A DNA stretch of 64,000 nt from an uncultured Candidatus Micrarchaeota archaeon (GTDB lineage: Archaea > Micrarchaeota > Micrarchaeia > Burarchaeales > Fermentimicrarchaeaceae): contig CAVXDX010000004.1 in assembly GCA_963760615.1 (NCBI GenBank), forward strand, positions 1-64,000, read 5' to 3'. The translations under genes and the position numbers were made by a program. The notes under the pieces were generated by a model. That model saw only the letters and a program-made list of their open reading frames with translations. It made no database searches and was not told the origin of the DNA. Shown piece after piece: positions 946 to 12,285 of the stretch (the stretch's first letter is position 1; each line of letters begins with the position of its first letter).

Positions 946-967
946 TCATACCTTATTCAGGGTGAAC

Positions 968-1312
968 ATGGGGAGACAGGCAAACGACCAGGGTGAGCAT
1001 AAATGGCGCCATCTCCGGGTGCTAGTGAAGCCCCAGAATCAGGCGATAATACATTTGCTTAGCGATGGCAAGCCCCGCATGCCTGTCGAGATATGCCGTG
1101 AATTGAAAGCATTTCCGAAAGCAACCCTTTACATAGCGATGAGGGAGCTTGTGATGAAGAAAATATTGATTCCGAAGATAATAGAGGATAAGGGGAAGAG
1201 GAGGAAGACACTTACCGAGATACTTGGTTATACATTGGATGAGGATGTCTCTGAGCTGGTGAGGATGCTGAATGAGGCAGATAAGCTGGCTGAGAACATA
1301 TCCATGAGGTAG
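968..1312 (+). CDS. Winged helix-turn-helix transcriptional regulator (ArsR/PadR-like), first gene of the V4R operon
   Basis: 'AIIHLLSDGKPRMPVEICRELKAFPKATLYIAMRELVMKKIL' followed by a wing ending in 'GYTL'. ATG 968 is preferred over GTG 962 because of SD spacing. Confidence 0.75.
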   Translation: MGRQANDQGEHKWRHLRVLVKPQNQAIIHLLSDGKPRMPVEICRELKAFPKATLYIAMRELVMKKILIPKIIEDKGKRRKTLTEILGYTLDEDVSELVRMLNEADKLAENISMR

Positions 1313-1825
1313 ATGGATTTGAAAGCAATGGTGTCAATTGAAAAGGGCCTTGTTGTCGTTGCTGGGCAGAGGTCAGTTCTCATACCGCCCAGCTTCATAA
1401 CACTGCTTCAGGACCGGGTGATGCAGGAGAAAGGAGAGAAATGGAGGGCGATATTCTACGAAGCGGGAAAGAAGGCACTAGAGGAAATAGCGCCAACCTA
1501 CAAGATGCTTCTGATGATTCCAAGAAATTCTGAAACATCAAAGAAAAAACTGATTGATGGAGTGGTTGAAATCTGGTCCTGGATGAGCTGCGGAAGGCCG
1601 GAAGTCACGAAAATGGACTTCAAGAGAAACAAATTCACATGTAGGTTCTACGACTCCGTTATTGCAAAACCATACATCGGGAGGGGGGACATGATGTGTG
1701 ATTACTTTTCTGGAGTGATAGCCGGCGGCTTCGGCTCCCTACTGGGGGTTAAGCTGAAATGCAGGGAAGTCAAATGCATCGCGCATGGGGATGAATTCTG
1801 CGAGTTTGAAGTTGAGGGTGTTTGA
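1313..1825 (+). CDS. V4R domain protein 1 (A-type, AGQR motif)
   Basis: N-terminal 'AGQR..L', 'FYEAG', 'MCDYFSG..AG' and C-terminal 'EVKCIAHGDEFCEF' (C...E-x2-C-x3-G-x3-C-x-F zinc motif). Confidence 0.9.
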   Translation: MDLKAMVSIEKGLVVVAGQRSVLIPPSFITLLQDRVMQEKGEKWRAIFYEAGKKALEEIAPTYKMLLMIPRNSETSKKKLIDGVVEIWSWMSCGRPEVTKMDFKRNKFTCRFYDSVIAKPYIGRGDMMCDYFSGVIAGGFGSLLGVKLKCREVKCIAHGDEFCEFEVEGV

Positions 1826-1826
1826 A

Positions 1827-2357
1827 GTGGAATACATAAAAAAGAAGGGCAAGGACCTGTTCATATTCGGCAAGCAGATTGTTGTCCTAGATGTCAGAGG
1901 GCTTTACCACATGAAAAAGGAGCTTGAGAAAGGTGTGGAGAAGCCGGATGAGATGCTTTACGAGGCTGGCAGGCTTTCTCTTATGGAAATTCACGAAAGC
2001 CTTGTCGCTTCCTTGGGGGATGCTGCCGAAACGATTCTCTCAGACAGGGAAAGCGCCCTTGACATGCTGGTCGATGCACTCAACCACTTGGGGCTTGGCG
2101 AGATATCTGTTCTAGAATTCAAGCCTGAGATAAAGTTTACAGTGAAGCACTCCGCAGGGGCGCAGGATTACATGAACAGGAAGGAGATGAGCAGGCATCC
2201 CACATGCTATGCGCTTGCGGGAATGTTTGCTGCCGTATCTGAGAAGCTACTTCAGACTCCTGTTATATGCAAGGAGACCAGATGCATTGCTTGCGGGGAT
2301 GAGGTTTGCGAATTTGTCATTCAGAATAATGCGAGAAAAAAAGAGGATGTAGGATGA
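1827..2357 (+). CDS. V4R domain protein 2 (B-like)
   Basis: 'GLYHMKKELEK', 'LYEAG', 'LNHLGLG', 'PTCYALAG' and 'ETRCIACGDEVCEF'. The GTG start at 1827 follows the upstream stop and a GAGGGTG SD. Confidence 0.9.
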   Translation: MEYIKKKGKDLFIFGKQIVVLDVRGLYHMKKELEKGVEKPDEMLYEAGRLSLMEIHESLVASLGDAAETILSDRESALDMLVDALNHLGLGEISVLEFKPEIKFTVKHSAGAQDYMNRKEMSRHPTCYALAGMFAAVSEKLLQTPVICKETRCIACGDEVCEFVIQNNARKKEDVG

Positions 2358-3442
2358 TATCCATGGTTCTCTCAGAAAATGAGGAGAAAATACTGAAGTC
2401 AATAATAGTGCCATCTGAGAATGACCCGCGTAAGCCTGAGTTCCCGCCAGACAAGCCGAGTTTCCCGGCCACACCGACCTACAAAATTGATGTGCCTGGT
2501 TTTTCCAATGTGTGGCTTAAAGACGAGAGTACGAACCCGACAGGGACTCACAAGGATAGGATGGCTTGGGAGATGGTTGTGACCTACAGGGATTTCCTTC
2601 TTGCCAAGAAGAGGGGGCAGATAAAAGGTCCCTTGCCCCACCTTTCCATTATTAGCTTCGGTTCCGCAGCCATTGCAATTCAAAACCAACTGAGAAAATA
2701 CAATCTACCTAATTTGAAGGTTCTGATTGATACTGATTTCATTGACCCCATTCTCCTAAAGGCACTCAAAAAGATGAAATGCGAGATTTACGAAACCGAT
2801 TTATCCAAGAAACCTCTTACTTTTAGAGAAATTCTCATTTTGACCCACAATCAGAACGGGTTTGATATTACATCCAATGAGGCTTTGGACCCAACGACTA
2901 GGTTCTACGACTGGCTGAGCTATGAAATAATAAACAATTCACCCGATTACGTTTTCATCCCATTTGGCACTGGAAATCTCTATGAAAATGTGCTGAACAC
3001 CACAAAAAAGGAAACTTCGACAAAAATCCATGACCCCAGATTCAAGGGTGATATAAACAAACTGAGAAACTGCAATTTTCTTGGTGCAACCACGAATAAT
3101 CCAAAGAGTAAAGCAGATAAGCTCTATTCTCCCCACCTGCCATTTGTCCACTACGATGAACAGTGGATTAGATTCTACAGATGCGCAGGATTCTGTGGCC
3201 CCCATTCAGGAGTTCATCTGATAAAAGAGGAGTTTTTGGATGAAGCCATAAATATAGCAAAATCGCAGGGAATAAATTTCGAGCCTTCCGGTATGGGCGG
3301 CCTGGCTCTAATGCTGCAGATGAAAAATAATCTTCCAAGAAACAAAAAGATGCTCATAGTCAGCACCGGAAAAACAAAAATCCCGCCAATTTGGCTCGGG
3401 GATGAGCTTTGTGAGTGTGTTATAAACGCTAAAAAGAGGTGA
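2354..3442 (+). CDS. PLP-dependent fold-type II enzyme (threonine synthase/cysteine synthase-like), substrate unknown
   Basis: 'VWLKDESTNPTGTHKDRMA' (Schiff-base Lys), 'SFGSAA', phosphate loop 'PFGTGNL' and 'EPSG'. ATGA overlap with V4R-2. Confidence 0.8.
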   Translation: MISMVLSENEEKILKSIIVPSENDPRKPEFPPDKPSFPATPTYKIDVPGFSNVWLKDESTNPTGTHKDRMAWEMVVTYRDFLLAKKRGQIKGPLPHLSIISFGSAAIAIQNQLRKYNLPNLKVLIDTDFIDPILLKALKKMKCEIYETDLSKKPLTFREILILTHNQNGFDITSNEALDPTTRFYDWLSYEIINNSPDYVFIPFGTGNLYENVLNTTKKETSTKIHDPRFKGDINKLRNCNFLGATTNNPKSKADKLYSPHLPFVHYDEQWIRFYRCAGFCGPHSGVHLIKEEFLDEAINIAKSQGINFEPSGMGGLALMLQMKNNLPRNKKMLIVSTGKTKIPPIWLGDELCECVINAKKR

Positions 3443-3446
3443 GTGG

Positions 3447-3977
3447 ATGATAGACAAGGACATAAAGCATGAGGTAATTATTGAAGAGGGGAAGACGACA
3501 ATTGCCGGTCAGAGAGCTATGCTGCTCTCTGTGAAGACAATAGCCACGCAGCAGAAGGAGCTGGAAAGGCTTGTTGGAGAGAAATGGGGTGCTGTTGTCT
3601 ACGAAGCGGAGAGGAAAGCAATACAGGAGGCAGCCCTGCAGATTTTCGGGCTGAAGCAGCTTGACTCCTTCACAAAGGGCAAAACATTCGACAAGAAAAG
3701 CATGGTGGAAACATTAATCAGCATATTCAACTGCGCAGGCTACGGGGTGCTGAAGCTGAAGAAATTCGATGAGGTTAAGCCATACGTCCTTGTAACAATG
3801 GAGAAGTCGACAATCCCACAGGAGTATGAGGAGAGGGATTCCCCGGTCTGCTTCAGGGTTGCAGGCATCCTTGCAGGAGGTTCAGAGGCGGTGTTCATGG
3901 TACCTATGAAGTGCAAGGAAAAGAAATGCATGTCGATGGGAGATTCGCACTGCGAGTTTGAGATAATGAGAAGGTGA
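3447..3977 (+). CDS. V4R domain protein 3 (A-type)
   Basis: 'IAGQRAMLLS', 'PVCFRVAGILAG' and 'EKKCMSMGDSHCEF'. GAGGTGAG SD upstream. Confidence 0.9.
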   Translation: MIDKDIKHEVIIEEGKTTIAGQRAMLLSVKTIATQQKELERLVGEKWGAVVYEAERKAIQEAALQIFGLKQLDSFTKGKTFDKKSMVETLISIFNCAGYGVLKLKKFDEVKPYVLVTMEKSTIPQEYEERDSPVCFRVAGILAGGSEAVFMVPMKCKEKKCMSMGDSHCEFEIMRR

Positions 3978-4537
3978 ATAGCTTGAGAGACATGGTAGAA
4001 ACCATAAAGTTAGAAGAAGGGAAAGTTACCATGTGCGATATGCCTATATTATTTGTTTTCACTAAATCCGTCTACTATATGCAGAAAGAATTGGAAGGAG
4101 TGCTAGGTGAGAAGTGGAAGAGAATGATGTATGAATGTGGCAAGAATGATGCGATGATTACTGTATCGGGCTTTTTTACATTGTTCCAGAATGAGGATAA
4201 GATAAAAGAACTGTTGCTTGTTGGCAAACCAGACCCCCTGAATAAAGCCGAATCTATGCAGTTCTTTACGGACCAATTCAATAAAATGGGTCTTGGGAGA
4301 GTGGAGATGGCAGAAACAGATACCAAAAAACTATCTTTTGTCCTGAGATTCTATTTCAGTCCAGTTGCGCAAGCCTATCTGGAACATGAGAAAAGCACTG
4401 AACCAGTATGCCACTATTTCTCGGGTTTGTGGTCCGGGGCATCTTCAACTTTCTATCCGGGTCTAGAAGCTTTTGAAAAGAAGTGCATGTCACGAGGAGA
4501 CCCCTACTGTGAGTTTGAAGTAAAAATGAGGCGATGA
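3974..4537 (+). CDS. V4R domain protein 4 (B-type)
   Basis: 'EEGKVTMCDMP..FTKSVYYMQKELE', 'FNKMGLG', 'PVCHYFSG' and 'EKKCMSRGDPYCEF'. GTGA overlap with V4R-3. Confidence 0.9.
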   Translation: MNSLRDMVETIKLEEGKVTMCDMPILFVFTKSVYYMQKELEGVLGEKWKRMMYECGKNDAMITVSGFFTLFQNEDKIKELLLVGKPDPLNKAESMQFFTDQFNKMGLGRVEMAETDTKKLSFVLRFYFSPVAQAYLEHEKSTEPVCHYFSGLWSGASSTFYPGLEAFEKKCMSRGDPYCEFEVKMRR

Positions 4538-4538
4538 T

Positions 4539-5075
4539 ATGAAACACATGATAGACACTCTCAAAATTGAGGAAGGGAAAGTTTTGATGAACGGAGTGCC
4601 CTTCACCTTTACCATGACAAAGTCTATTTACTATACACAAAAAGAGTTCGAAAAGATAATCGGGGAGAAATGGAAGAGGCTCTTTTACGAGCGTGGCAGA
4701 ATTGATGCAGTTGCTACCGTTGCCGGCTTCCTTGGAATGTTCCATAATGCTCCAGAAATAAATAAATTGCTTGCAGATAGACTAGAAGGCGTGCGATTCA
4801 GCATGAACGAATACAACAAGATGGGGTTGGGAAGGGCAGAGATGATAAAGGCAGATCCTGAAAAACCACTCTTCGTCTTCAGATACTACTTCAGCCCGGG
4901 TGCAGTCGCATACATAGAGCATGAGAAATCAAAAGAGCCGGTCTGCTACCATTTTGCAGGCATATGCGCTGGCGCGGTCTCAATTTTCTACCCCGGCATT
5001 GAAGCGACTGAAATTAAATGCATAGCCATGGGCGATCCTTACTGCGAGTTTGTCGCTAGCATTCTGAAGAGGTGA
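4539..5075 (+). CDS. V4R domain protein 5 (B-type)
   Basis: 'TKSIYYTQKEFE', 'YNKMGLG', 'PVCYHFAG' and 'EIKCIAMGDPYCEF'. Confidence 0.9.
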   Translation: MKHMIDTLKIEEGKVLMNGVPFTFTMTKSIYYTQKEFEKIIGEKWKRLFYERGRIDAVATVAGFLGMFHNAPEINKLLADRLEGVRFSMNEYNKMGLGRAEMIKADPEKPLFVFRYYFSPGAVAYIEHEKSKEPVCYHFAGICAGAVSIFYPGIEATEIKCIAMGDPYCEFVASILKR

Positions 5076-5079
5076 TGAG

Positions 5080-5616
5080 ATGAAACATATGGTAGAAACG
5101 ATGAAACTCGAAGAAGGGAAGGTGACAATGTGCAACCTTCCACTTACATTCACTTTTACCAAGTCAGTCTATTATATGCAAACAGAGTTAGAGAAGACAT
5201 TAGGAGATAAATGGAAGAAGATAGCGTATGAGTGCGGAAAAATTGATGGGGCCGTGTGTAATTCCAATTTTGCTGCAATGTTTCATAATGATCCTGATTT
5301 GATAAAACTAATCTCTGATAAATCGCAGGGTTTTAACTTCTGTGTGACTGAATATAATAGAATGGGTAAAGGTAAACTAGAGGCCGTAAAGGCCGATACA
5401 GAAAAATTCTCTTTTATTCTAAGAATGTATTTTAGTCCCATCGCCTTGGCGTATCTGGAACATGAGAAGACAACAGAACCCGTATGTTACCATATCGCTG
5501 GGATATTTGTTGGAGCAGGAAATATATTTTACCCTGGAATAGAGGCTGTTGAGACGAAGTGTCTGGCTAAAGGAGATCCGTATTGTGAATTTGTGATTGA
5601 AATACCAAAGAAGTGA
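5080..5616 (+). CDS. V4R domain protein 6 (B-type)
   Basis: 'FTKSVYYMQTELE', 'PVCYHIAG' and 'ETKCLAKGDPYCEF'. Confidence 0.9.
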   Translation: MKHMVETMKLEEGKVTMCNLPLTFTFTKSVYYMQTELEKTLGDKWKKIAYECGKIDGAVCNSNFAAMFHNDPDLIKLISDKSQGFNFCVTEYNRMGKGKLEAVKADTEKFSFILRMYFSPIALAYLEHEKTTEPVCYHIAGIFVGAGNIFYPGIEAVETKCLAKGDPYCEFVIEIPKK

Positions 5617-5620
5617 TTGT

Positions 5621-6157
5621 ATGAAGCATATGGTTGAACTAATGAAACTTAGTGAAGGAAAAATTACTCTATGCGATTTACCGATAATATTCACCTTTAC
5701 AAAATCAATGTATTATATTCAAAAAGAGCTTGAAAAAGTGGCAGGAGAATCATGGAAGAAAATACTCTATGAATGTGGCAAGATCGATGGCATAGGCTGT
5801 AATTCGAACTACGTAGGCATCTTTCACAATGATCCAGATTTTCAAAAACTTGCATCTGATAAATTTGGTGCTTTTAGTTTCTGCGTTGATGAGTTCAACA
5901 GGCTTGGAAAAGGACGGTTAGAGATAGTAACTGCAAATAAGGAGAAACCGCTCTTTATATTGCGGTATTATTTCAGTCCCATAGCATTAGCTTATCTAGA
6001 ACATGGCGGAGCTGCTGAACCGATTTGTTACCATTTTGCCGGAGTATTCTCTGGAGCCGCTAATATAGTCTACCCAGGCATAGAAGTAGTTGAGACTAAA
6101 TGCCTCGCGACGGGTGATCCTTACTGTGAGTTTATATTCGAAATACCAACAAAATAG
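5621..6157 (+). CDS. V4R domain protein 7 (B-type)
   Basis: ATG 5621 (MKHMVE) is chosen by alignment with paralogs 5 and 6. Motifs 'PICYHFAG' and 'ETKCLATGDPYCEF'. Confidence 0.9.
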   Translation: MKHMVELMKLSEGKITLCDLPIIFTFTKSMYYIQKELEKVAGESWKKILYECGKIDGIGCNSNYVGIFHNDPDFQKLASDKFGAFSFCVDEFNRLGKGRLEIVTANKEKPLFILRYYFSPIALAYLEHGGAAEPICYHFAGVFSGAANIVYPGIEVVETKCLATGDPYCEFIFEIPTK

Positions 6158-6165
6158 GTGATTCT

Positions 6166-6693
6166 TTGGTCAAGAAATTCGGGAATGACATCATCTTCGA
6201 TGATGGCAAAAGTATCGTTGCAGGTCAAAGAGGACTTCTTCTCAGCATCAAAAACATTGTCAACCAACAGAAAGAAATAGAAAGAGTGGTGGGACAAAAG
6301 TGGGGCTATGTGATATACGAAGCGGAGAGAAAAGCTATCCAAGAGGCCGTCCCGCAGATTATAAGTATTAAAAAAATTGACACACTACTTAAGAATTCTG
6401 AATTTAGTAAGAAGGCGATGGTTCAGAGCCTAATAGATATATTCAATCAAACAGGTTTGGGATTACTAAAACTTAAAACATTTGATGAAAGGAGGTTACG
6501 ATTTGAGGTTGCTGTAGAAAACTCTCCCATTCCAGAAGAATACGAGAAGAGAGATACGCCGGTTTGTTTTCATCTTGCGGGAATATTTGCAGGTGCTGCA
6601 GAAGCCATTTTTATGATGCCCATGGCATGTAAAGAAGTTAAATGTGCTAGTATGGGTGATTCATCTTGCAAATTTGAAATAACGAAGAGGTGA
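6166..6693 (+). CDS. V4R domain protein 8 (A-type, closest to V4R-3)
   Basis: 'VAGQRGLLLS', 'KWGYVIYEAERKAIQEA' (compare V4R-3 'KWGAVVYEAERKAIQEA'), 'PVCFHLAG' and 'EVKCASMGDSSCKF'. TTG start after an AGGTGA SD. Confidence 0.9.
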   Translation: MVKKFGNDIIFDDGKSIVAGQRGLLLSIKNIVNQQKEIERVVGQKWGYVIYEAERKAIQEAVPQIISIKKIDTLLKNSEFSKKAMVQSLIDIFNQTGLGLLKLKTFDERRLRFEVAVENSPIPEEYEKRDTPVCFHLAGIFAGAAEAIFMMPMACKEVKCASMGDSSCKFEITKR

Positions 6694-6697
6694 TTAA

Positions 6698-7228
6698 ATG
6701 GTGGACCTTGTTGATACATTAGCTCTTAACAAAGGAAGGATGTCGCTATCCACAGTTCCATTTGCTATATTCCTCACTAAATCAATTTACTATATGCAAG
6801 AAGAACTTAAAAAGCATACTGGAGATTCTTGGAAAAAAATATTGTACGATAGTGGAAAAACCGATGCGTTTGTTGCTAACACGAGTTATCTGCACATATG
6901 CGCGGAAGATCAAACTTTAAAAAATCTATTGACTGACAATAAAAAAGCCATATATTTCCTAGAACAGCAATATAACAAGATTGGAAAGGGCATAATAAAA
7001 GTAGAATATAACCTCAAACAAGACAGCATAGTACTACTGCAATATAGCCCGATAGCATTAGAGTACGTCGAGCATGGCGGAAGTAAAGAGCCACAATGCT
7101 ACTATTTTGCAGGTGTCTATGCAGGATCTATGTCCATATTCCACCCCGGAGCAGAAGCTAAAGAAACCAAATGCATGGCGAAAGGCGATCCGTACTGTGA
7201 GTTCATAGTAAACCTACAAAGAAAATGA
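6698..7228 (+). CDS. V4R domain protein 9 (B-type)
   Basis: 'TKSIYYMQEELK', 'YNKIGKG', 'PQCYYFAG' and 'ETKCMAKGDPYCEF'. Confidence 0.9.
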   Translation: MVDLVDTLALNKGRMSLSTVPFAIFLTKSIYYMQEELKKHTGDSWKKILYDSGKTDAFVANTSYLHICAEDQTLKNLLTDNKKAIYFLEQQYNKIGKGIIKVEYNLKQDSIVLLQYSPIALEYVEHGGSKEPQCYYFAGVYAGSMSIFHPGAEAKETKCMAKGDPYCEFIVNLQRK

Positions 7229-7277
7229 AAACAAGCAAATTTATTTATACCCTCCTACCATACTTTAAACGACCAGT

Positions 7278-7646
7278 ATGCCTGAAGAAACAATGTTGAG
7301 TGTTTTAGAGGATCTATTAAGAGAAGAAGATATATTGGCTGTAATGCTAGCTAGAAAAAATGAAGTTTCAATTACTCCTCCCCCCAACAAATTCAAATTA
7401 CACGATCCATCTATTTTTGGGCTTTTACAATCAACAATGAACGATTTTTTTACAGTTATAGAAAAATTGGCTGGACAGGGATTAGATAAAGTCTATTTCG
7501 AACTTGGGGACTATGAAGTTATGTTCTTTTTGATATCAGGAGATACTGCTCTAGTAGCAATACTTCCCGCTTTAGCTAATAAAGGTCTTTTGGAAGTAGA
7601 GATGGAGAACACTCGAAGAACTATTAAAAAATTAATTGGTCGATAA
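7278..7646 (+). CDS. Roadblock/LC7 (MglB-like) domain protein
   Basis: 122 aa with a helix / 'ILAVMLAR' strand / helix / beta strands / C-terminal helix layout. 'NKGLLEVEM' matches the roadblock 'N.GL...EM' pattern. It has its own TTTATA box at 7244-7249. Confidence 0.7.
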   Translation: MPEETMLSVLEDLLREEDILAVMLARKNEVSITPPPNKFKLHDPSIFGLLQSTMNDFFTVIEKLAGQGLDKVYFELGDYEVMFFLISGDTALVAILPALANKGLLEVEMENTRRTIKKLIGR

Positions 7647-7647
7647 G

Positions 7648-8925
7648 ATGGTTTTCAAGGCGACTGTAGTCCTGAGCCGTAAATGGGATGCTAGCGAAGC
7701 AGGTGAAGAAATAGGAAAACAAATTAATGAAGTAATTAAGGATAAGCCCAGCTTCGTATTACTATTCTCAACTATCCATTATGAAAAATATGGTGGTTTC
7801 AAAAAATTTTTGGATGCTGTTAATACAAATCTACCTTCAGGTACCCCAATTTTGGGAGGAACAGTCGCAGGATTCATTAATAAATACGGAGCCTATACAC
7901 GAGGAGCCACTGCTTTAGCAGTATATTCTAATGAAATGGATATCGCTATTGGAGTTGGACATGATACCAAAAAAAATCCTAATAAAGCTGCAGAGACTTG
8001 CGCGAGAATGATAAAAAAAGGACTTGCTACAAGCAGATACCGAAATAAATTACTCTTTGAGATTGTTTCAGGGGGTAGAATACCTCCATTCCCCGGAATG
8101 GGGAGGAGAAGGGTTGTAACATCCGGTCTAGTCAGTAAAATAGCAACTGCTTTGACTGATTTTTCTTTAAATGTGCTACAATATGGTGTCGGTAGAGAAG
8201 AAGAGGTTCTAAGTTCCTTGTCCAACCAGCTTCCCGATTATACAATACTCGGTGGTTCTTCAATGGACAATAATACTATGTTAGAAAACTATCAGTTTTT
8301 TGGCAATGATTTTTATAAAAATTCAATAGTGGCTGTTGGAATAAGTACAGATCAGGAAATAAATCTAAACACAACATATGGTTTTAAAGAAACAGGTATA
8401 AAAATAAAAATAACTAAGAAGAGATGGAATATTATTCACGAAATAGATGGACTACCAGCTTTAGACGCTTTCTTAAAACTAATCTCCTGGCCTTATGACT
8501 TCATAGACGAAAGAATATATAGAAAAACGTTCTCTATTCCTCTAGGTTACAGAAAAGACAACATTTTATTCCCAAATGTTATTGGTGGATTTCTGGGCAA
8601 AGATATACTATGCGGTTATAAAATAGAATCTAATGAGCTTGATTTGCTGTCTGCATCTGGAAAGAGCTTAGTGAATGCAGTAGATGAAAATCTAAAAGAA
8701 TTTGAGAATAAAAATAATAAGATTGCAATAATTGTTGAATGTGGCATTAGGTTAGAGGCGATAGGTGCAAACATTTTTATTACGCGAGACAAACTCCTCA
8801 ATTTTTTTGGAGAAACTCCATTCATTTTAATATATACCGCCGGTGAAGATGCATATAGCCTAAAAAAAGGAAAACGACACGTTAATGGCAGTTTTAATGT
8901 CGTAACAATATCCAACCCTGATTAA
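7648..8925 (+). CDS. FIST (FIST_N + FIST_C, NosP-like) domain protein
   Basis: 'PSFVLLFS', 'PILGGTVAG', 'ILGGSS.D', 'IHEIDGLPALD', 'IVECGIR' and 'IYTAGE' are recurring FIST motifs. Confidence 0.85.
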   Translation: MVFKATVVLSRKWDASEAGEEIGKQINEVIKDKPSFVLLFSTIHYEKYGGFKKFLDAVNTNLPSGTPILGGTVAGFINKYGAYTRGATALAVYSNEMDIAIGVGHDTKKNPNKAAETCARMIKKGLATSRYRNKLLFEIVSGGRIPPFPGMGRRRVVTSGLVSKIATALTDFSLNVLQYGVGREEEVLSSLSNQLPDYTILGGSSMDNNTMLENYQFFGNDFYKNSIVAVGISTDQEINLNTTYGFKETGIKIKITKKRWNIIHEIDGLPALDAFLKLISWPYDFIDERIYRKTFSIPLGYRKDNILFPNVIGGFLGKDILCGYKIESNELDLLSASGKSLVNAVDENLKEFENKNNKIAIIVECGIRLEAIGANIFITRDKLLNFFGETPFILIYTAGEDAYSLKKGKRHVNGSFNVVTISNPD

Positions 8926-9022
8926 TAATCAATTATTTATACAAACCGCATCCAATTTTTTCCGTACTCTTTCAAACTTTAATACATTTGTTTTATACCT
9001 CTCCCTTCTAGTCTTATTTCTG

Positions 9023-9124
9023 ATGACCATGCTGGTCAATGCGACTTTTTGTTCGGCCTGCGGCTCCGGCGGATTAGTAACAATCAAAATATTAAAGATG
9101 GCATATCTACTTCCCCCAATCTAG
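9023..9124 (+). CDS. Candidate 33-aa peptide MTMLVNATFCSACGSGGLVTIKILKMAYLLPPI
   Basis: Own translation. TTTTATA at 8991-8997 lies about 26 nt upstream of the ATG, which is leaderless-promoter geometry. Confidence 0.25.
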   Translation: MTMLVNATFCSACGSGGLVTIKILKMAYLLPPI

Positions 9125-9147
9125 CCCCAACAGCTAAGTCTAACATA

Positions 9148-10212
9148 CTACCACCCGATATTCGAAATTTCATAGGCTTTGTAAATATCAGCATATTCTC
9201 TATAAAATAATCTTGAGATAAAATAACTACGAATTCCATATCCACCAGCAAATGGTTTTATATGACGATTTAACTCTTGATTATTCATTCTACTCAGTCT
9301 CTCAAACGCTTTATTAAATAGTGGCGATGCATAATAAGACAGAACCCACCGTTTTTCATACCTATCTAGATTTCTCTCAATAACTGCTTCAGCCGCCATT
9401 TTGGCTGCATTCATACCGGATCGAATACCACCTTTAGTTAGTGCATTTGTTTGACATGCCGCATCGCCAACTAAAAGTATTCTTCCATTAATAAACCTAT
9501 CTACCCCGCCGTAGCCTATTACTCTAGTCTGCTTGGTTAGAAATTTACCAGCATATGCCAAATTCTTAAGTAACGGAAAACCAATTTTTTTCGTACACCC
9601 ATTTGGAAATACCCAGCTATAATCACCTTTATATTTTTCATCATAGTAGAAAAATAAAGTATCATGTATGGGCTCTTCATCCACTATATACTGAATAACT
9701 GGAGTAATTCTGCCCCCCCAGATCCCAAGCGTTTTTCTAAACATCGAATTTGCACCATCCGCAGCTACAACATAATCAAATCTTCTTACAGTACCCTTAG
9801 AGAATTTAACAACAACTTTATTCCTGTTCTGCGAAAAATCCGAAATATTTTCTACTTTAAAATCCCCACCAATCTTCTCGTACCAGCTAATAATATTCTC
9901 TAAAAACCGAGGTCTATTGAGTACATAACCGTTTGTCTTCATTGTATTCTCGATTTTACCGGGCCAAAGATCTTTGAGATATCTTATTCTCTCAACAATA
10001 GCAGTCGGTTTTATCGGTTTTATATCATTAAAACAATCCTCACTTATGACCTCACCGCAAATACTATGATAAATATCAAACTTATCTTTGGTTAATCTCT
10101 CAACAAGGGTAACATTCAACTCATCATCTTTATCAAAATATTTCAAGAAAAAAGCAGCAGCGCATCCAGCAGGTCCAGCTCCAACAACCAGCACATCACA
10201 CTTCATTGTCAT
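9148..10212 (-). CDS. Geranylgeranyl reductase-family flavoprotein
   Basis: 'DVLVVGAGPAG', 'CGE', 'VVAADGANS', 'YSWVFPNG' and 'LLVGDAACQTNALTKGGI'. Confidence 0.8.
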   Translation of the reverse strand: MTMKCDVLVVGAGPAGCAAAFFLKYFDKDDELNVTLVERLTKDKFDIYHSICGEVISEDCFNDIKPIKPTAIVERIRYLKDLWPGKIENTMKTNGYVLNRPRFLENIISWYEKIGGDFKVENISDFSQNRNKVVVKFSKGTVRRFDYVVAADGANSMFRKTLGIWGGRITPVIQYIVDEEPIHDTLFFYYDEKYKGDYSWVFPNGCTKKIGFPLLKNLAYAGKFLTKQTRVIGYGGVDRFINGRILLVGDAACQTNALTKGGIRSGMNAAKMAAEAVIERNLDRYEKRWVLSYYASPLFNKAFERLSRMNNQELNRHIKPFAGGYGIRSYFISRLFYREYADIYKAYEISNIGW

Positions 10213-10309
10213 GTAGCACCTATTTACTCAACTAATATTTAAATTGGCGGTACAAAGATATATACCCCTATAACATCAGTAAAATAAGTTATTACGGGCA
10301 GGGATTTGC

Positions 10310-11554
10310 GTGACTAACTGCATAATTGCAGGAGGAGGACTGGCGGGTCTAGCTGCGGCTTATACTATACAGAATAGCAAGAATGACATCTCATTATTAG
10401 AAGCCGAAAATAGAGTCGGAGGTAGGATACTCACCATACCCTATCACGGTAGATTCATGGATTTAGGTGCTCAGTTCTACTGCAAGGGAAATCATAAATT
10501 TTGGAATCTCGCAGCTGCAATTGGCTGTTCAACTCCGAAGATCATCAAAGGTCTCATCCCAAATATCTATCATCAAAATCGTAGACTTCTGTTAACACCA
10601 AAGAGTATCCTGCTGAACACCTCACTTAAAGAAAAGATAGAACTATCAAAACTACTCTATAAGTTAAATCGATTTGATTATAATTCCGATCTTAATATAG
10701 ACAATGACATTACCTTTAGTGAGTGGTACTATAACCACATTGGCAATGAAATGCTATGGCTTTGCGATACCCTCCTACATGGTGTTTGCTTCTCACACTC
10801 CAATAAAATATCAGCCGGTTATGCATTTAGAATCCTCAAGGCCATGTTAGCAGATAAAATTTATACCTTCAATAGAGGACTGGGCGAGATAAATACAAAA
10901 CTCGAGAATTTTTTAAATAGTAGAAAAAACGTACATCTTATCTTGAAAGCGGATATAAAACAAATAAATGTAGAGAATGACAATGTATCTGACTGCACCT
11001 ATGAATTTCAAGATAATTTAGTTAATGCAAAGACAAACAAATTAATTTCAACTATACCTGCTCCAATTCTGTACAAAGTATTAAACCAAAAGATAAAACC
11101 ACTAAGTGAAATCGAATATAGCCCTACTATATATCTTCTGCTCCTCTATGATAAATATATGCAAGGAGACTTAGACCTCTTCTTCACTGACCCGAAATTT
11201 CCTATAAGCGGAACTGCAAATGAGATGCATAAATTTCAAGGTAGCAACTTGGGTGCATTAGGCGTTCTGTTCCCAGATTGTGGAAAAATTATCAACAAGA
11301 CAAATGACCAAATAACTAACCTAGCTATCGATCTACTTTCAGATAAATTACCTCTTAATGAAAAACACATCACAGGAAGCATGGTTCTACGTTGGCATTA
11401 CAGTATGCCTGTACCATCACCGCAATTTTTCATTAATCAAAACAAAATAAAAAATCATGGAATTGGTGGTTTGTATGTATGTGGTGATTTTATGAGTATG
11501 CCAAGTCTAGAAGGAGCAATGTTAAGTGTGCATGACTCGCTTAATTTAAAATAA
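10310..11554 (+). CDS. FAD-dependent oxidoreductase, amine oxidase/protoporphyrinogen oxidase (HemY)-like
   Basis: 'IIAGGGLAGL', 'LEAENRVGGR', 'DLGAQF', 'RWHYSMP' and 'CGDFM..PSLEGA'. GTG start. Confidence 0.75.
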   Translation: MTNCIIAGGGLAGLAAAYTIQNSKNDISLLEAENRVGGRILTIPYHGRFMDLGAQFYCKGNHKFWNLAAAIGCSTPKIIKGLIPNIYHQNRRLLLTPKSILLNTSLKEKIELSKLLYKLNRFDYNSDLNIDNDITFSEWYYNHIGNEMLWLCDTLLHGVCFSHSNKISAGYAFRILKAMLADKIYTFNRGLGEINTKLENFLNSRKNVHLILKADIKQINVENDNVSDCTYEFQDNLVNAKTNKLISTIPAPILYKVLNQKIKPLSEIEYSPTIYLLLLYDKYMQGDLDLFFTDPKFPISGTANEMHKFQGSNLGALGVLFPDCGKIINKTNDQITNLAIDLLSDKLPLNEKHITGSMVLRWHYSMPVPSPQFFINQNKIKNHGIGGLYVCGDFMSMPSLEGAMLSVHDSLNLK

Positions 11555-11640
11555 TACGCCGTAAAATTTTCAAAAAAGTTTTTAGTGTTAGTATAAATTT
11601 TTTAACAAACATCTTTCCAATCTCCCCAACAACCAGCACA

Positions 11641-12285
11641 TCACAGTCCATTCGAGCCACCATTAAACATCCCATTTGACTCTTCAGTATTCACCTGCCT
11701 CACAACTATTTCGTCAGGAGTGTCCATCACTATAAACTCATACATACTTCTTATAATTCTGTTGGCGTACCCCCCGACCAGATGGTAGAATAGGTCAAAC
11801 ATCAGGAATGCCAGGAAGTATATAGGTGCAAATACTCCGAAGGCTACAAGAAGTAACATCACGGCCTGCATGCTGAACCTGAAGTGGAAGAAAGTTTTCC
11901 AGAATCTGGAGTTTATGAGCCCCAAATCGGACTGGTTGTTCCCAATCTCATCAATCACTCCGCCAAAAATCAATGCGGCTATGGGAAGCCAGTTCAGCAC
12001 TACGGAATTTGCCAAGAATATCGGAATTGCAAATGCAACTACCGTGGCAACCATGAAAACAGAGGTGTCTATCTTCCTAGTCACTGCCACTCCTACAATA
12101 ACTGCGATTCCTATGGAGGATGAAGTAGCATCAGTTGCCATGACGTACCCGCCGAGTAGCCCGCAGATTAATCCCAGTATCGCTGCAACTCTCTTATCAA
12201 ACACTCCCTCATCGTAAACACAATCAATGTACTTCAAACCCGCACCGAGGAAAGCAAAGCTGGCAAGCAGAAACCAATACTCCAT
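11641..12285 (-). CDS. Polytopic membrane protein with Asp-rich loops
   Basis: About six hydrophobic segments with the motifs 'KYIDCVYDE', 'KID', 'IDEIGNNQSD', 'FFHFRF' and 'FDLFY'. Confidence 0.6.
   Translation of the reverse strand: MEYWFLLASFAFLGAGLKYIDCVYDEGVFDKRVAAILGLICGLLGGYVMATDATSSSIGIAVIVGVAVTRKIDTSVFMVATVVAFAIPIFLANSVVLNWLPIAALIFGGVIDEIGNNQSDLGLINSRFWKTFFHFRFSMQAVMLLLVAFGVFAPIYFLAFLMFDLFYHLVGGYANRIIRSMYEFIVMDTPDEIVVRQVNTEESNGMFNGGSNGL

What the first reader, a model, noticed from the sequence alone, without database searches (positions are those of the whole stretch)
1313..7228. The array has a grammar: three modules of one A-type V4R followed by one or more B-types (A-B, A-B-B-B-B, A-B)
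Seen: V4R-1, -3 and -8 share an N-terminal 'AGQR.(V/M/L)L' motif, and 3 and 8 also share 'KWGxVxYEAERKAIQEA', with E where the others have G. V4R-2, -4, -5, -6, -7 and -9 share '(S/G)(I/V/L/M)Y(Y/H)xxxE' and 'S(P/A)xAxxYxxxxxxxxPxC'. Every run of B genes starts directly after an A gene. Established: V4R sensor domains of PoxR/MopR dimerise. Inference: these form A:B heterodimers, with a shared A scaffold and interchangeable B specificity subunits, giving a combinatorial receptor repertoire.
Basis: partly seen in the sequence, partly recalled or inferred. Interest (0 to 1): 0.75.

Follow-up and report, generated by a model that had tools for sequence, protein, structure and literature searches.

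The report
Two-type V4R gene array in Micrarchaeota
A tiny symbiotic archaeon carries nine neighbouring genes for small ligand-binding V4R proteins of two old types, laid out as repeated A-then-B units, which probably pair up as mixed dimers, much as their eukaryotic Bet3 relatives do, although pairing with a copy of themselves was not tested.

Summary
The observation mostly holds. Nine intact V4R (PF02830) genes lie head to tail at 1313-7228, in one operon of a 1.14-Mb Micrarchaeota genome (same genus as Ca. Fermentimicrarchaeum limneticum). They are the only V4R genes in that genome.

A mixture-model tree supports an A clade (V1, V3, V8; 96/91) and a B core clade (V4-V7, V9; 100/100). V2 is a third long branch, and the AU test rejects neither V2+B (p 0.50) nor V2+A (p 0.47). 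The order A-B / A-B-B-B-B / A-B alone is not beyond chance: 10 of 84 orderings fit it. However, each A-to-B junction recurs in a relative.

The heterodimer reading is partly supported. Mixed V4R pairs also recur independently:
- an X-Y-X-Y array in another genome of the phylum;
- a gene pair shared by Nanohalobium and an Armatimonadetes bacterium;
- 77 tandem V4R-V4R fusions among 187 retrieved homologues.

Homodimers could not be tested, and close cousins also pass this kind of model. The "shared A scaffold, interchangeable B" idea is untested. Verdict: a new variant of a known kind, of moderate interest.

The parts
962..1312 (+). 116-aa probable winged-helix protein. It is the first gene of the operon and stops 1 nt before the V1 start.
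   Evidence: Only a weak hit to NCBIfam PRK06474 (E 0.0036) and no Pfam hit. Conserved in the same position in G002 and in L033. 91% identical to the G002 ortholog, dN/dS 0.06.
1313..1825 (+). V4R-1, type A, divergent
   Evidence: Pfam V4R 43 bits. Carries AGQRSVL. Lies in the A clade at 96/91. Ortholog Fl1 in G002 is 76% identical, dN/dS 0.14.
1818..2357 (+). V4R-2, a long branch of unresolved type, probably on the B side. The start is probably GTG 1818; the longest ORF begins at ATG 1785.
   Evidence: Pfam V4R 51 bits. Start inferred from the sequence and from the G002 ortholog. AU tests: V2+B p 0.50, V2+A p 0.47. Shares a rare Tyr and a long Y-to-C loop with the B core.
2354..3442 (+). PLP-dependent enzyme (PALP fold) inserted between module 1 and module 2
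   Evidence: PF00291 54 bits. Only weak hits to threonine and cysteine synthase models, far below their cut-offs. Absent from the G002 array. Lies upstream of the wHTH gene in L033.
3447..3977 (+). V4R-3, type A
   Evidence: Pfam V4R 50 bits. 58% identical to V8. V3+V8 clade 100/99. 93% identical to Fl3, dN/dS 0.05.
3974..4537 (+). V4R-4, type B; overlaps V3 by 4 nt
   Evidence: Pfam V4R 34 bits. B core clade 100/100. The V3-V4 overlap is kept in G002.
4539..5075 (+). V4R-5, type B
   Evidence: Pfam V4R 39 bits. 51-58% identical to V4, V6 and V7. No ortholog in G002.
5080..5616 (+). V4R-6, type B
   Evidence: Pfam V4R 39 bits. 70% identical to V7. GC3 drops from this gene onward.
5621..6157 (+). 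V4R-7, type B. The start is probably ATG 5621; the longest ORF begins at TTG 5597.
   Evidence: Pfam V4R 40 bits. Ortholog Fl5 is 82% identical, dN/dS 0.075.
6166..6693 (+). V4R-8, type A
   Evidence: Pfam V4R 63 bits. AF2 model pLDDT 78; nearest folds are the DmpR/PoxR/MopR sensor domains (TM 0.71) and Bet3/TRAPPC3. Chain 1 of the complex model.
6698..7228 (+). V4R-9, type B, the most divergent member of the B core
   Evidence: Pfam V4R 39 bits. 40-44% identical to V4-V7. A V8-like gene is followed by a V9-like gene on contig L102 as well. Chain 2 of the complex model.
7278..7646 (+). 122-aa roadblock/LC7-fold protein that always follows the array
   Evidence: No Pfam hit. Atlas nearest cluster is Roadblock/LAMTOR2 (0.99). 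The AF2 model has the order helix, two strands, helix, three strands, helix (pLDDT 71). Foldseek top hits are MglB and Asgard roadblocks (TM 0.54-0.63). Lies directly downstream of the last B gene on the related contigs L102-L104, L106 and L107; in G002 a minus-strand FAD gene intervenes.
7636..8925 (+). FIST-domain protein; overlaps the roadblock gene
   Evidence: PF08495 84 bits. Weak NosP-like hit, far below the cut-off.

Best explanation
The stretch is a lineage-specific expansion of stand-alone V4R proteins, which are zinc-site small-molecule-binding domains. It lies in a single operon: wHTH, V4R x2, PLP enzyme, V4R x7, then the roadblock and FIST genes.

Shown:
- There are two old paralog lineages, A (V1, V3, V8) and B (V4-V7, V9; V2 probably).
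- All nine are intact and keep the C-x22-E-x2-C-x7-C zinc ligands.
- The five with G002 orthologs are under purifying selection.
- The array is fluid within the genus: 9, 6, or one 48-aa remnant.

Inferred, about 75%: the array grew by duplicating an A-B gene pair as a unit, giving three A-to-B junctions, followed by local B duplication and turnover.

Inferred, about 50%: the working unit is an A:B heterodimer joined through an intertwined N-terminal strand-and-helix interface. This would match Bet3 pairing with Trs31 or Trs33 in TRAPP, and the N and C halves of the many fused V4R-V4R proteins. On this reading the A-specific and B-specific motifs are the two complementary faces of that interface.

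Inferred, about 25%: the surplus B copies share an A partner and supply different ligand pockets.

The ligand and the output are unknown. The output could run through the wHTH, roadblock or FIST proteins.
For: Genes and family:
- Nine V4R hits pass the Pfam cut-off, and they are the only ones in the genome.
- Spacing between neighbouring genes runs from an 8-nt overlap to an 8-nt gap.

Two types:
- A clade 96/91, V3+V8 100/99, B core 100/100.
- The tree holding V2 with the B core has a log-likelihood 0.19 higher than the free search.
- V2 shares with the B core a Tyr that is rare in the family and a long loop.

Recurrence of the junctions:
- G002 has A-B, A-B-B-B in the same flanks.
- L102 has B-A(V8-like)-B(V9-like) followed by the roadblock gene.

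Selection:
- dN/dS is 0.05-0.21 between G000 and G002.
- V1 and V2 are both fast-evolving, V3 and V4 both slow.

Complex model V8+V9:
- ipSAE 0.91 in three runs; best of 3 controls 0.00.
- The mark was reached by 58 of 80 solved complexes and 2 of 110 mismatched pairs.
- The runs agree in at least 97% of their contacts, and the partner's pLDDT is at least 90.
- The interface has 167-173 contacts. It covers V8 residues 21-31 (GQRxLL lies here) and 52-58 (EAERKA), and V9 residues 20-33 (P21, SIYY).
- V8 residues 1-24 have pLDDT below 50 in the monomer model.

Independent analogues:
- 77 of 187 retrieved homologues are V4R-V4R fusions. Their halves are a median 29% identical and tend to form separate N and C clades.
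- G254 has an X-Y-X-Y array: g1/g3 56%, g2/g4 49%, cross pairs 34-39% identical; clades 100/94 and 100/95.
- In the Nanohalobium and Armatimonadetes pairs the first genes cluster together and the second genes cluster together (100/98, 100/96).

Precedent: Bet3-Trs31 and Bet3-Trs33 heterodimer structures are among the fold hits. Bet3-family proteins act as homo- or heterodimers (PMC2253512).
Against: - Homodimers A:A and B:B were not modelled. The solved relatives PoxR and Thor-TRAPPC3 are homodimers (PMC10933270). The tool's own calibration says close cousins of a true partner also pass (10 of 12 colicin pairs), and like complexes are solved, so the pass may only reflect likeness.
- The ordering alone has a chance probability of 12%.
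- All genomes with the A/B order belong to one genus-level lineage.
- V2 is not resolved as a B type.
- A:B is 3:6 here and 2:4 in G002. That does not fit simple 1:1 pairs.
- The fusions' N and C domains do not nest with A and B. They are parallels, not orthologues.
- Interface positions are not significantly more conserved among the B copies (0.54 vs 0.48, p 0.27), and class-specific columns are not enriched in the interface (p 0.25).
- A same-genus genome has lost the array, so it is accessory.
Confidence: 0.5

Rival explanations
1. Each of the nine proteins is an independent homodimeric ligand binder or sensor, like the PoxR/MopR sensor domains. The A/B order is only the footprint of how tandem duplications happened and has no bearing on who binds whom.
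For: The solved prokaryotic relatives and Thor-TRAPPC3 are homodimers (PMC10933270; fold and sequence hits). The order is within chance at 12%. There are B-only runs of four here and three in G002. The complex model cannot tell cousins apart. Tests of interface conservation gave nothing.
Against: Pairs of clearly different types are kept next to each other or fused in several unrelated lineages, and are duplicated as pairs in G254. That is hard to explain if neighbours never interact. The class-specific motifs lie in the predicted interface rather than the pocket.
Confidence: 0.3
2. The V4R proteins, together with the roadblock protein, build a larger mixed assembly. This would be a TRAPP-like rod of Bet3-fold dimers on a roadblock/longin-fold dimer, acting as a scaffold or lipid-handling complex rather than as separate receptors.
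For: V8 has the Bet3/TRAPPC3 fold (TM 0.5-0.6). The conserved gene that follows every array variant has the roadblock fold. It is 76-88% identical among relatives, which is more conserved than several of the V4R genes. Mouse TRAPPC3 holds palmitate (PMC10933270).
Against: No Ras-like small GTPase was found in the 91%-complete genome; the only hits are in ORFs of 274-600 aa. No V4R-roadblock contact was modelled. In L033 the roadblock and FIST genes persist without the array, so they do not depend on it.
Confidence: 0.08
3. The A/B classes are not real: the shared motifs are chance resemblances among fast-diverging paralogs.
For: V1 is only 29-32% identical to V3 and V8, against 23-27% to the B genes. 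V2 is about equally distant from all the others.
Against: The A clade has 96/91 support under a mixture model with outgroups, and the B core has 100/100. The A motif occurs in 9 of 251 family domains, all of them in the A clade.
Confidence: 0.03

Closest known systems
Bet3-family subunits of eukaryotic TRAPP (Bet3/TRAPPC3 with Trs31/TRAPPC5 or Trs33/TRAPPC6)
   Same: Same fold: V8 model against Bet3 chains, TM 0.5-0.66. Homology of V4R and Bet3 was proposed in PMC2253512. Paralogs of one fold pair as heterodimers, with one common subunit (Bet3) taking alternative partners. That is the same logic as the proposed A with several B.
   Different: Here the zinc site is kept, whereas mouse TRAPPC3 replaced it (PMC10933270). 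No Rab-like GTPase was found in the genome. No longin subunits were shown to bind. Heterodimer formation is only modelled. The A/B split arose separately from the Bet3/Trs31/Trs33 split.
Sensor domains of the phenol-responsive activators PoxR, MopR and DmpR
   Same: Best structural matches (TM 0.70-0.72) and sequence matches (MopR E 1.8e-8). The spacing of the zinc ligands is the same (from my memory of MopR C155/E178/C181/C189). They form dimers through the N-terminal part (PMC10933270).
   Different: Those are homodimers fused to AAA+ and DNA-binding domains. Here the proteins are stand-alone, 170-190 aa, in two types, nine in a row.
Tandem V4R-V4R fusion proteins of archaea and bacteria (about 340-480 aa, uncharacterised)
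   Same: Two differentiated V4R domains are kept together. The N and C halves are a median 29% identical, like A against B (23-32%).
   Different: They are one polypeptide. Their N and C domains form their own clades and do not nest with A or B. No arrays and no surplus of one type.
MJ1460 of Methanocaldococcus jannaschii (PDB 2osd/2oso) and other solo archaeal V4R proteins; the Ignicoccus hospitalis V4R expansion
   Same: Stand-alone archaeal V4R proteins of unknown ligand; MJ1460 is the best sequence match among solved structures (E 6.5e-9). Ignicoccus has 7-9 V4R proteins, which was called unusually many (PMC2253512, PMC2614490).
   Different: Here all nine sit in one operon, in a genome of 1.14 Mb, in two ordered types.
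MsvR-type HTH-V4R transcription regulators
   Same: A wHTH gene directly precedes V1, like a split form of HTH-V4R. HTH-sized N-terminal extensions on V4R proteins are common in the archaeal loci fetched (ORFs of 260-310 aa).
   Different: The hit to the MsvR model is 33 bits against a cut-off of 220. The HTH is a separate gene, and it survives in L033 without the array.

Membership tests
V4R domain family (Pfam PF02830) | Score above Pfam's gathering cut-off (31 bits) | tested here: met
   All nine score 33.9-63 bits.
V4R domain family (Pfam PF02830) | Zinc-site ligands Cys, Glu, Cys, Cys | tested here: met
   C, E, C, C are invariant in all nine, with spacing x22, x2, x7. The same columns are C in 181, E in 250, C in 249 and C in 248 of 251 family domains. 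Metal binding itself was not tested.
V4R domain family (Pfam PF02830) | Two-layer alpha/beta fold of PoxR, MopR and Bet3 | tested here: met
   V8 model pLDDT 78; Foldseek probability 1.00 and TM 0.70-0.72 to DmpR, PoxR and MopR. Only V8 was modelled alone.
PoxR/MopR/DmpR-type phenol sensors (NtrC-family activators) | V4R sensor fused to an AAA+ sigma-54 activator and a DNA-binding domain | tested here: not met
   The ORFs are 170-190 aa with a single V4R domain.
PoxR/MopR/DmpR-type phenol sensors (NtrC-family activators) | Homodimer of the sensor domain | not tested
TRAPP Bet3-family heterodimers | Bet3 fold | tested here: met
   Bet3/TRAPPC3 chains at TM 0.5-0.66, E 1e-6 to 1e-4.
TRAPP Bet3-family heterodimers | Stable heterodimer between two paralogous subunits | tested here: inconclusive
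   The V8:V9 model scores 0.91 against 0.00 for the best of 3 controls. The mark was reached by 58 of 80 solved complexes and 2 of 110 mismatched pairs. This is a model only, and homodimers were not compared.
TRAPP Bet3-family heterodimers | Works with longin subunits as an exchange factor for a Rab GTPase | tested here: not met
   No Ras-like small GTPase was found in the 91%-complete genome. A roadblock-fold gene is adjacent, but binding was not tested.
MsvR-type HTH-V4R regulators | HTH and V4R in one protein; score above the NCBIfam cut-off (220 bits) | tested here: not met
   Best score is 33 bits (V8) against NF053755. The wHTH is a separate gene.
Tandem V4R-V4R fusion proteins | Two V4R domains in one chain; domains belong to the N or C clades | tested here: not met
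   The genes are separated by stop codons. A and B lie outside the N and C clades.

The most novel reading that the evidence does not exclude
Prokaryotic V4R proteins commonly work as mixed pairs of two differentiated paralogs. These pairs are encoded either as neighbouring genes or as one fused chain. That would make the Bet3-Trs31/Trs33 heterodimer design of eukaryotic TRAPP an inherited prokaryotic habit rather than a eukaryotic invention. In Fermentimicrarchaeum this pair has been multiplied into a fast-changing repertoire, in which a few A subunits each take several B subunits with different pockets. It could be a combinatorial sensor or carrier set for host-derived hydrophobic molecules in a symbiont with a 1.1-Mb genome.
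Probability: 0.25. Interest if true: 0.7.

Novelty: new variant of a known kind. Interest (0 to 1): 0.5.

Why it matters
V4R is a widespread but poorly understood ligand-binding domain and the proposed ancestor of the Bet3 subunits of TRAPP.

If mixed A:B dimers are real, they would be the first prokaryotic case of the paralog-pairing design seen in TRAPP. They would also explain why fused V4R-V4R proteins and V4R gene pairs are so common.

Nine copies in a 1.14-Mb genome of a host-dependent archaeon is a heavy investment: most of the 301 genomes of the phylum that were searched have none or one. The number changes from nine to six to a remnant within one genus. That points to a changeable, probably environment- or host-facing function.

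The library search found no paper on prokaryotic V4R heterodimers or arrays. The library is incomplete.

Tried and rejected
The longer Logan and JGI contigs that seem to carry related arrays (7,572, 9,163, 12,660, 31,445 and 71,784 bp) could not be read. That A and B lie together on them is only inferred from equal contig lengths.
- A genome scan with P0073, the nearest outside A-like protein, found nothing.
- Class-specific columns in the interface against the rest: 2 of 56 against 1 of 115, p 0.25.
- Conservation of interface positions among the B copies: 0.54 against 0.48, p 0.27. It reaches p 0.026 only within the N-terminal 100 residues. Among the A copies there is no difference. This is not decisive.
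- The length of the Y-to-C loop (A 7, B 10, V2 11) is not unique to these clades and does not separate N from C domains of fusions.
- The extra Cys shared by A and V2 is the common state in the family, so it says nothing about V2.
- The A and B motifs have no counterpart in the N and C domains of the fusions.
- The position of V9 inside the B core is a polytomy. The claim that V8-V9 is a copy of a V3-V4 pair is therefore compatible with the trees but not shown.
- Recent import of the low-GC half of the array was rejected, because G002 shows the same GC3 step.
- Pfam and NCBIfam gave no family for the 116-aa and 122-aa proteins.

Full report
**What is there.** Positions 1313-7228 hold nine co-oriented ORFs of 170-190 aa. 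Each passes Pfam's cut-off for the V4R domain (33.9-63 bits against 31). They are packed tightly: V1/V2 overlap by 8 nt if V2 starts at GTG 1818, as its ortholog suggests, V3/V4 overlap by 4 nt, and the other gaps are 1-8 nt. A PLP-fold enzyme gene (2354-3442) sits between V2 and V3; it overlaps V2 by 4 nt and ends 4 nt before V3. A 116-aa probable winged-helix gene ends 1 nt before V1. A 122-aa gene and a FIST gene follow V9. All nine keep four invariant residues spaced C-x22-E-x2-C-x7-C. These columns are almost invariant across 251 family domains, and they correspond to the zinc site described for PoxR-type V4R domains and Thor-TRAPPC3 (PMC10933270).

**Where it comes from.** The window is the first 64 kb of contig 4 of a 1.14-Mb, 91%-complete genome. 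These nine are its only V4R hits. A same-genus genome (G002) is Ca. Fermentimicrarchaeum limneticum Sv326, a Micrarchaeota (DPANN) archaeon (names). In 301 genomes of the phylum, this genome has the most V4R matches (9). G002 and G254 follow with 6 each, one genome has 4, and the rest have 0-3. That sample includes two unpublished genomes, G216 and G061, and no claim here rests on them. Ignicoccus hospitalis, with 7-9 V4R proteins, was called unusual (PMC2253512, PMC2614490).

**The observation.**
AGQR.[VML]L occurs in V1, V3 and V8 only. The long KWG...AIQEA motif occurs in V3 and V8 only. The Y[YH] motif occurs in V2, V4-V7 and V9.
- The second B motif as written fits V4-V7 and V9 but not V2, which has one extra residue.
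- Pairwise identities give two tight groups: V3/V8 at 58% and V4-V7/V9 at 40-70%. V1 and V2 are both remote from everything, at 22-32%.
- A search of 1.8 billion representative proteins with a profile of the nine gave 2,861 relatives at E up to 0.001.
- A FastTree of 251 domains and a mixture-model IQ-TREE of 68 rows agree. V1 joins V3/V8 in an A clade (96/91) together with one outside protein (P0073), and V4-V7 with V9 form a B core (100/100).
- V2 and its orthologs are a third long branch. Holding V2 with the B core gives a log-likelihood 0.19 higher than the free search found (AU p 0.50). Holding it with A costs only 0.74 (p 0.47).
- V2 shares with the B core a Tyr that is rare in the family and a long loop before the first zinc Cys. 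I therefore read V2 as probably B, but this is not shown.

**Is the grammar more than chance?** With three A and six B, 10 of 84 orderings fit the pattern 'starts with A, and every A is followed by at least one B'. That is 12%, so the order alone proves nothing. Conservation adds weight:
- G002 has wHTH, A-B, A-B-B-B in the same flanks, without the PLP gene and without the third module.
- Metagenome contig L102 has B, a V8-like A, a V9-like B, then the 122-aa gene.
- Other fragments end with a V6-like B directly before the 122-aa gene (L104, L106, L107).
- L033, which matches same-genus G004, has PLP enzyme, wHTH, a 48-aa V4R remnant, the 122-aa gene and FIST.

Each A-to-B junction is thus seen at least twice, but only within one genus-level lineage, and the array is gained and lost quickly. 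The genes are not decaying: dN/dS between G000 and G002 orthologs is 0.05-0.21. The neighbours V1 and V2 are both fast-evolving and V3 and V4 both slow. That is only two pairs.

**How the array grew.** V3 and V8 are sisters. V9 is the most distant member of the B core by identity, but its branch point is unresolved. The topology (V1,(V3,V8)) for A and (V2,(V9,(V4-V7))) for B would be the signature of an A-B pair copied twice as a unit, followed by local B duplication. The data are compatible with this but do not prove it. An independent case makes duplication of pairs credible. In G254, from another family of the phylum, four V4R genes in a row alternate X-Y-X-Y. Identities are g1/g3 56% and g2/g4 49%, with cross pairs at 34-39%, and the two clades have support 100/94 and 100/95.

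**Do A and B bind each other?** One complex job was allowed, and I used it on the neighbours V8 and V9, each with its own alignment.
- Score 0.91 in three runs; the best of 3 controls was 0.00.
- The mark was reached by 58 of 80 solved complexes and by 2 of 110 mismatched pairs.
- The runs agree in at least 97% of their contacts, and the partner's pLDDT is at least 90.
- The interface is large (167-173 contacts). It is made of the N-terminal 60 residues of both chains plus residues 94-100 and about 118-122.
- V8 residues 21-31 pair with V9 residues 20-26 as crossing strands.
- V8 residues 53-57 lie on V9 residues 28-36.

In the monomer model, V8 residues 1-24 are disordered (pLDDT below 50), as expected for a segment that folds only in a dimer.

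The limits are serious. Solved relatives are homodimers with the same kind of interface (PoxR, Thor-TRAPPC3; PMC10933270), so the pass may reflect likeness only. Close cousins of true partners also pass such models. A:A and B:B were not modelled. The model supports binding and does not show a preference for the mixed pair.

**Comparative support for mixed pairs.**
Their halves are a median 29% identical and mostly fall into separate N and C clades. There are several such fusion families.
- Separate but adjacent V4R genes of two types occur in G125 and G087. They also occur in a Nanohalobium MAG and an Armatimonadetes MAG, where the first genes cluster together and the second genes cluster together (100/98 and 100/96). 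That pair has therefore been kept, and apparently moved, as a unit.
- None of these pairs nests with A or B, so they are parallels.

Together they show that two differentiated V4R domains are repeatedly kept side by side. For fused chains this implies physical proximity. The eukaryotic homologues do the same: Bet3 pairs with Trs31 or Trs33, and those heterodimer structures are among the fold hits of the V8 model (PMC2253512).

The A:B ratio is 1:2 in both complete arrays. The idea that one A serves several B is only one way to read that; B:B dimers are another. Interface positions are not clearly more conserved among the B copies than other positions, and class-specific columns are too few for a test.

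**Surroundings.**
- The 122-aa protein has the roadblock/LC7 fold. The evidence is the Atlas cluster (0.99), an AF2 model with the order helix, two strands, helix, three strands, helix, and Foldseek hits to MglB and Asgard roadblocks.
- No Ras-like small GTPase was found in the genome. A TRAPP-like or MglAB-like exchange function therefore has no visible client.
- GC3 falls from 0.45-0.62 (wHTH to V5) to 0.24-0.37 (V6 to the amine oxidase gene). G002 shows the same step, so it is old and not a recent import.

**Verdict.**
- The two-type structure is real for eight of the nine genes.
- The A-then-B order is conserved within the lineage and is best explained by duplication of A-B pairs.
- A:B heterodimers are plausible, at about 50%, but were not distinguished from homodimers.
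- The combinatorial-receptor idea is untested.
- The feature is a new variant of a known kind: a known domain, known dimerisation, and a known heterodimer precedent in eukaryotes. Ordered two-type arrays and mixed V4R pairs in prokaryotes were not found described in the library searched.

Noticed in passing
window 2354-3442; L033 8442-9470: The PLP-fold enzyme gene inside the array is mobile relative to it. It is absent from the G002 array and lies upstream of the wHTH gene in L033 (G004-like). It matches threonine and cysteine synthase models only far below their cut-offs.
   Followed up: partly
L033 9644-11841 (a Micrarchaeota MAG that matches same-genus G004, locus L018): In this relative the whole V4R array is reduced to a 48-aa C-terminal V4R remnant between the wHTH gene and the roadblock gene. 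The array is therefore dispensable, and was probably deleted by recombination between repeats.
   Followed up: partly
window 5080-11554; L021 8682-14033: There is a step in composition inside the array. GC3 is 0.45-0.62 from wHTH to V5 and 0.24-0.37 from V6 through roadblock, FIST, the GGR-like gene and the amine oxidase gene. The same step lies between Fl4 and Fl5 in G002, so it predates the two species.
   Followed up: partly
window 7278-7646: The 122-aa protein with no Pfam hit has the roadblock/LC7 fold (MglB, LAMTOR and Asgard roadblock hits). It is 76-88% identical among relatives. No Ras-like small GTPase was found in the genome.
   Followed up: yes
window 7636-8925 and 3974-4537 against L021: Divergence from G002 is uneven. 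FIST is only 35% identical, while the neighbouring roadblock gene is 77% identical. V4 has dS 0.26 against 0.8-1.7 for V1, V2, V3 and V7. This suggests recombination between array variants of different strains.
   Followed up: no
L181 2634-4939 (G254), minus strand: Four V4R genes in a row in another family of the phylum alternate between two types (X-Y-X-Y). This is an independent case of a mixed V4R pair duplicated as a unit.
   Followed up: yes
L083 5383-6568 (Nanohalobium MAG) and L084 7739-8915 (Armatimonadetes MAG): An overlapping pair of divergent V4R genes is shared between an archaeon and a bacterium. The first genes cluster together and the second genes cluster together, which suggests the pair was transferred as a unit.
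   Followed up: partly
genomes of families f13 and f17: Most genomes of two large families of the phylum have one V4R hit inside an ORF of 330-390 aa. These are probably the tandem V4R-V4R fusion type. The genus of this window lacks that form and has the split array instead.
   Followed up: no
window 9148-12285: After the operon come an FAD-dependent GGR-like reductase gene (minus strand), an amine-oxidase or phytoene-desaturase-like flavoprotein gene, and a 214-aa membrane protein gene. The latter two are conserved next to the locus in G002; in place of the reductase G002 has a 381-aa FAD-type gene between the array and the roadblock gene. A link to a hydrophobic ligand is conceivable but was not examined.
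   Followed up: no
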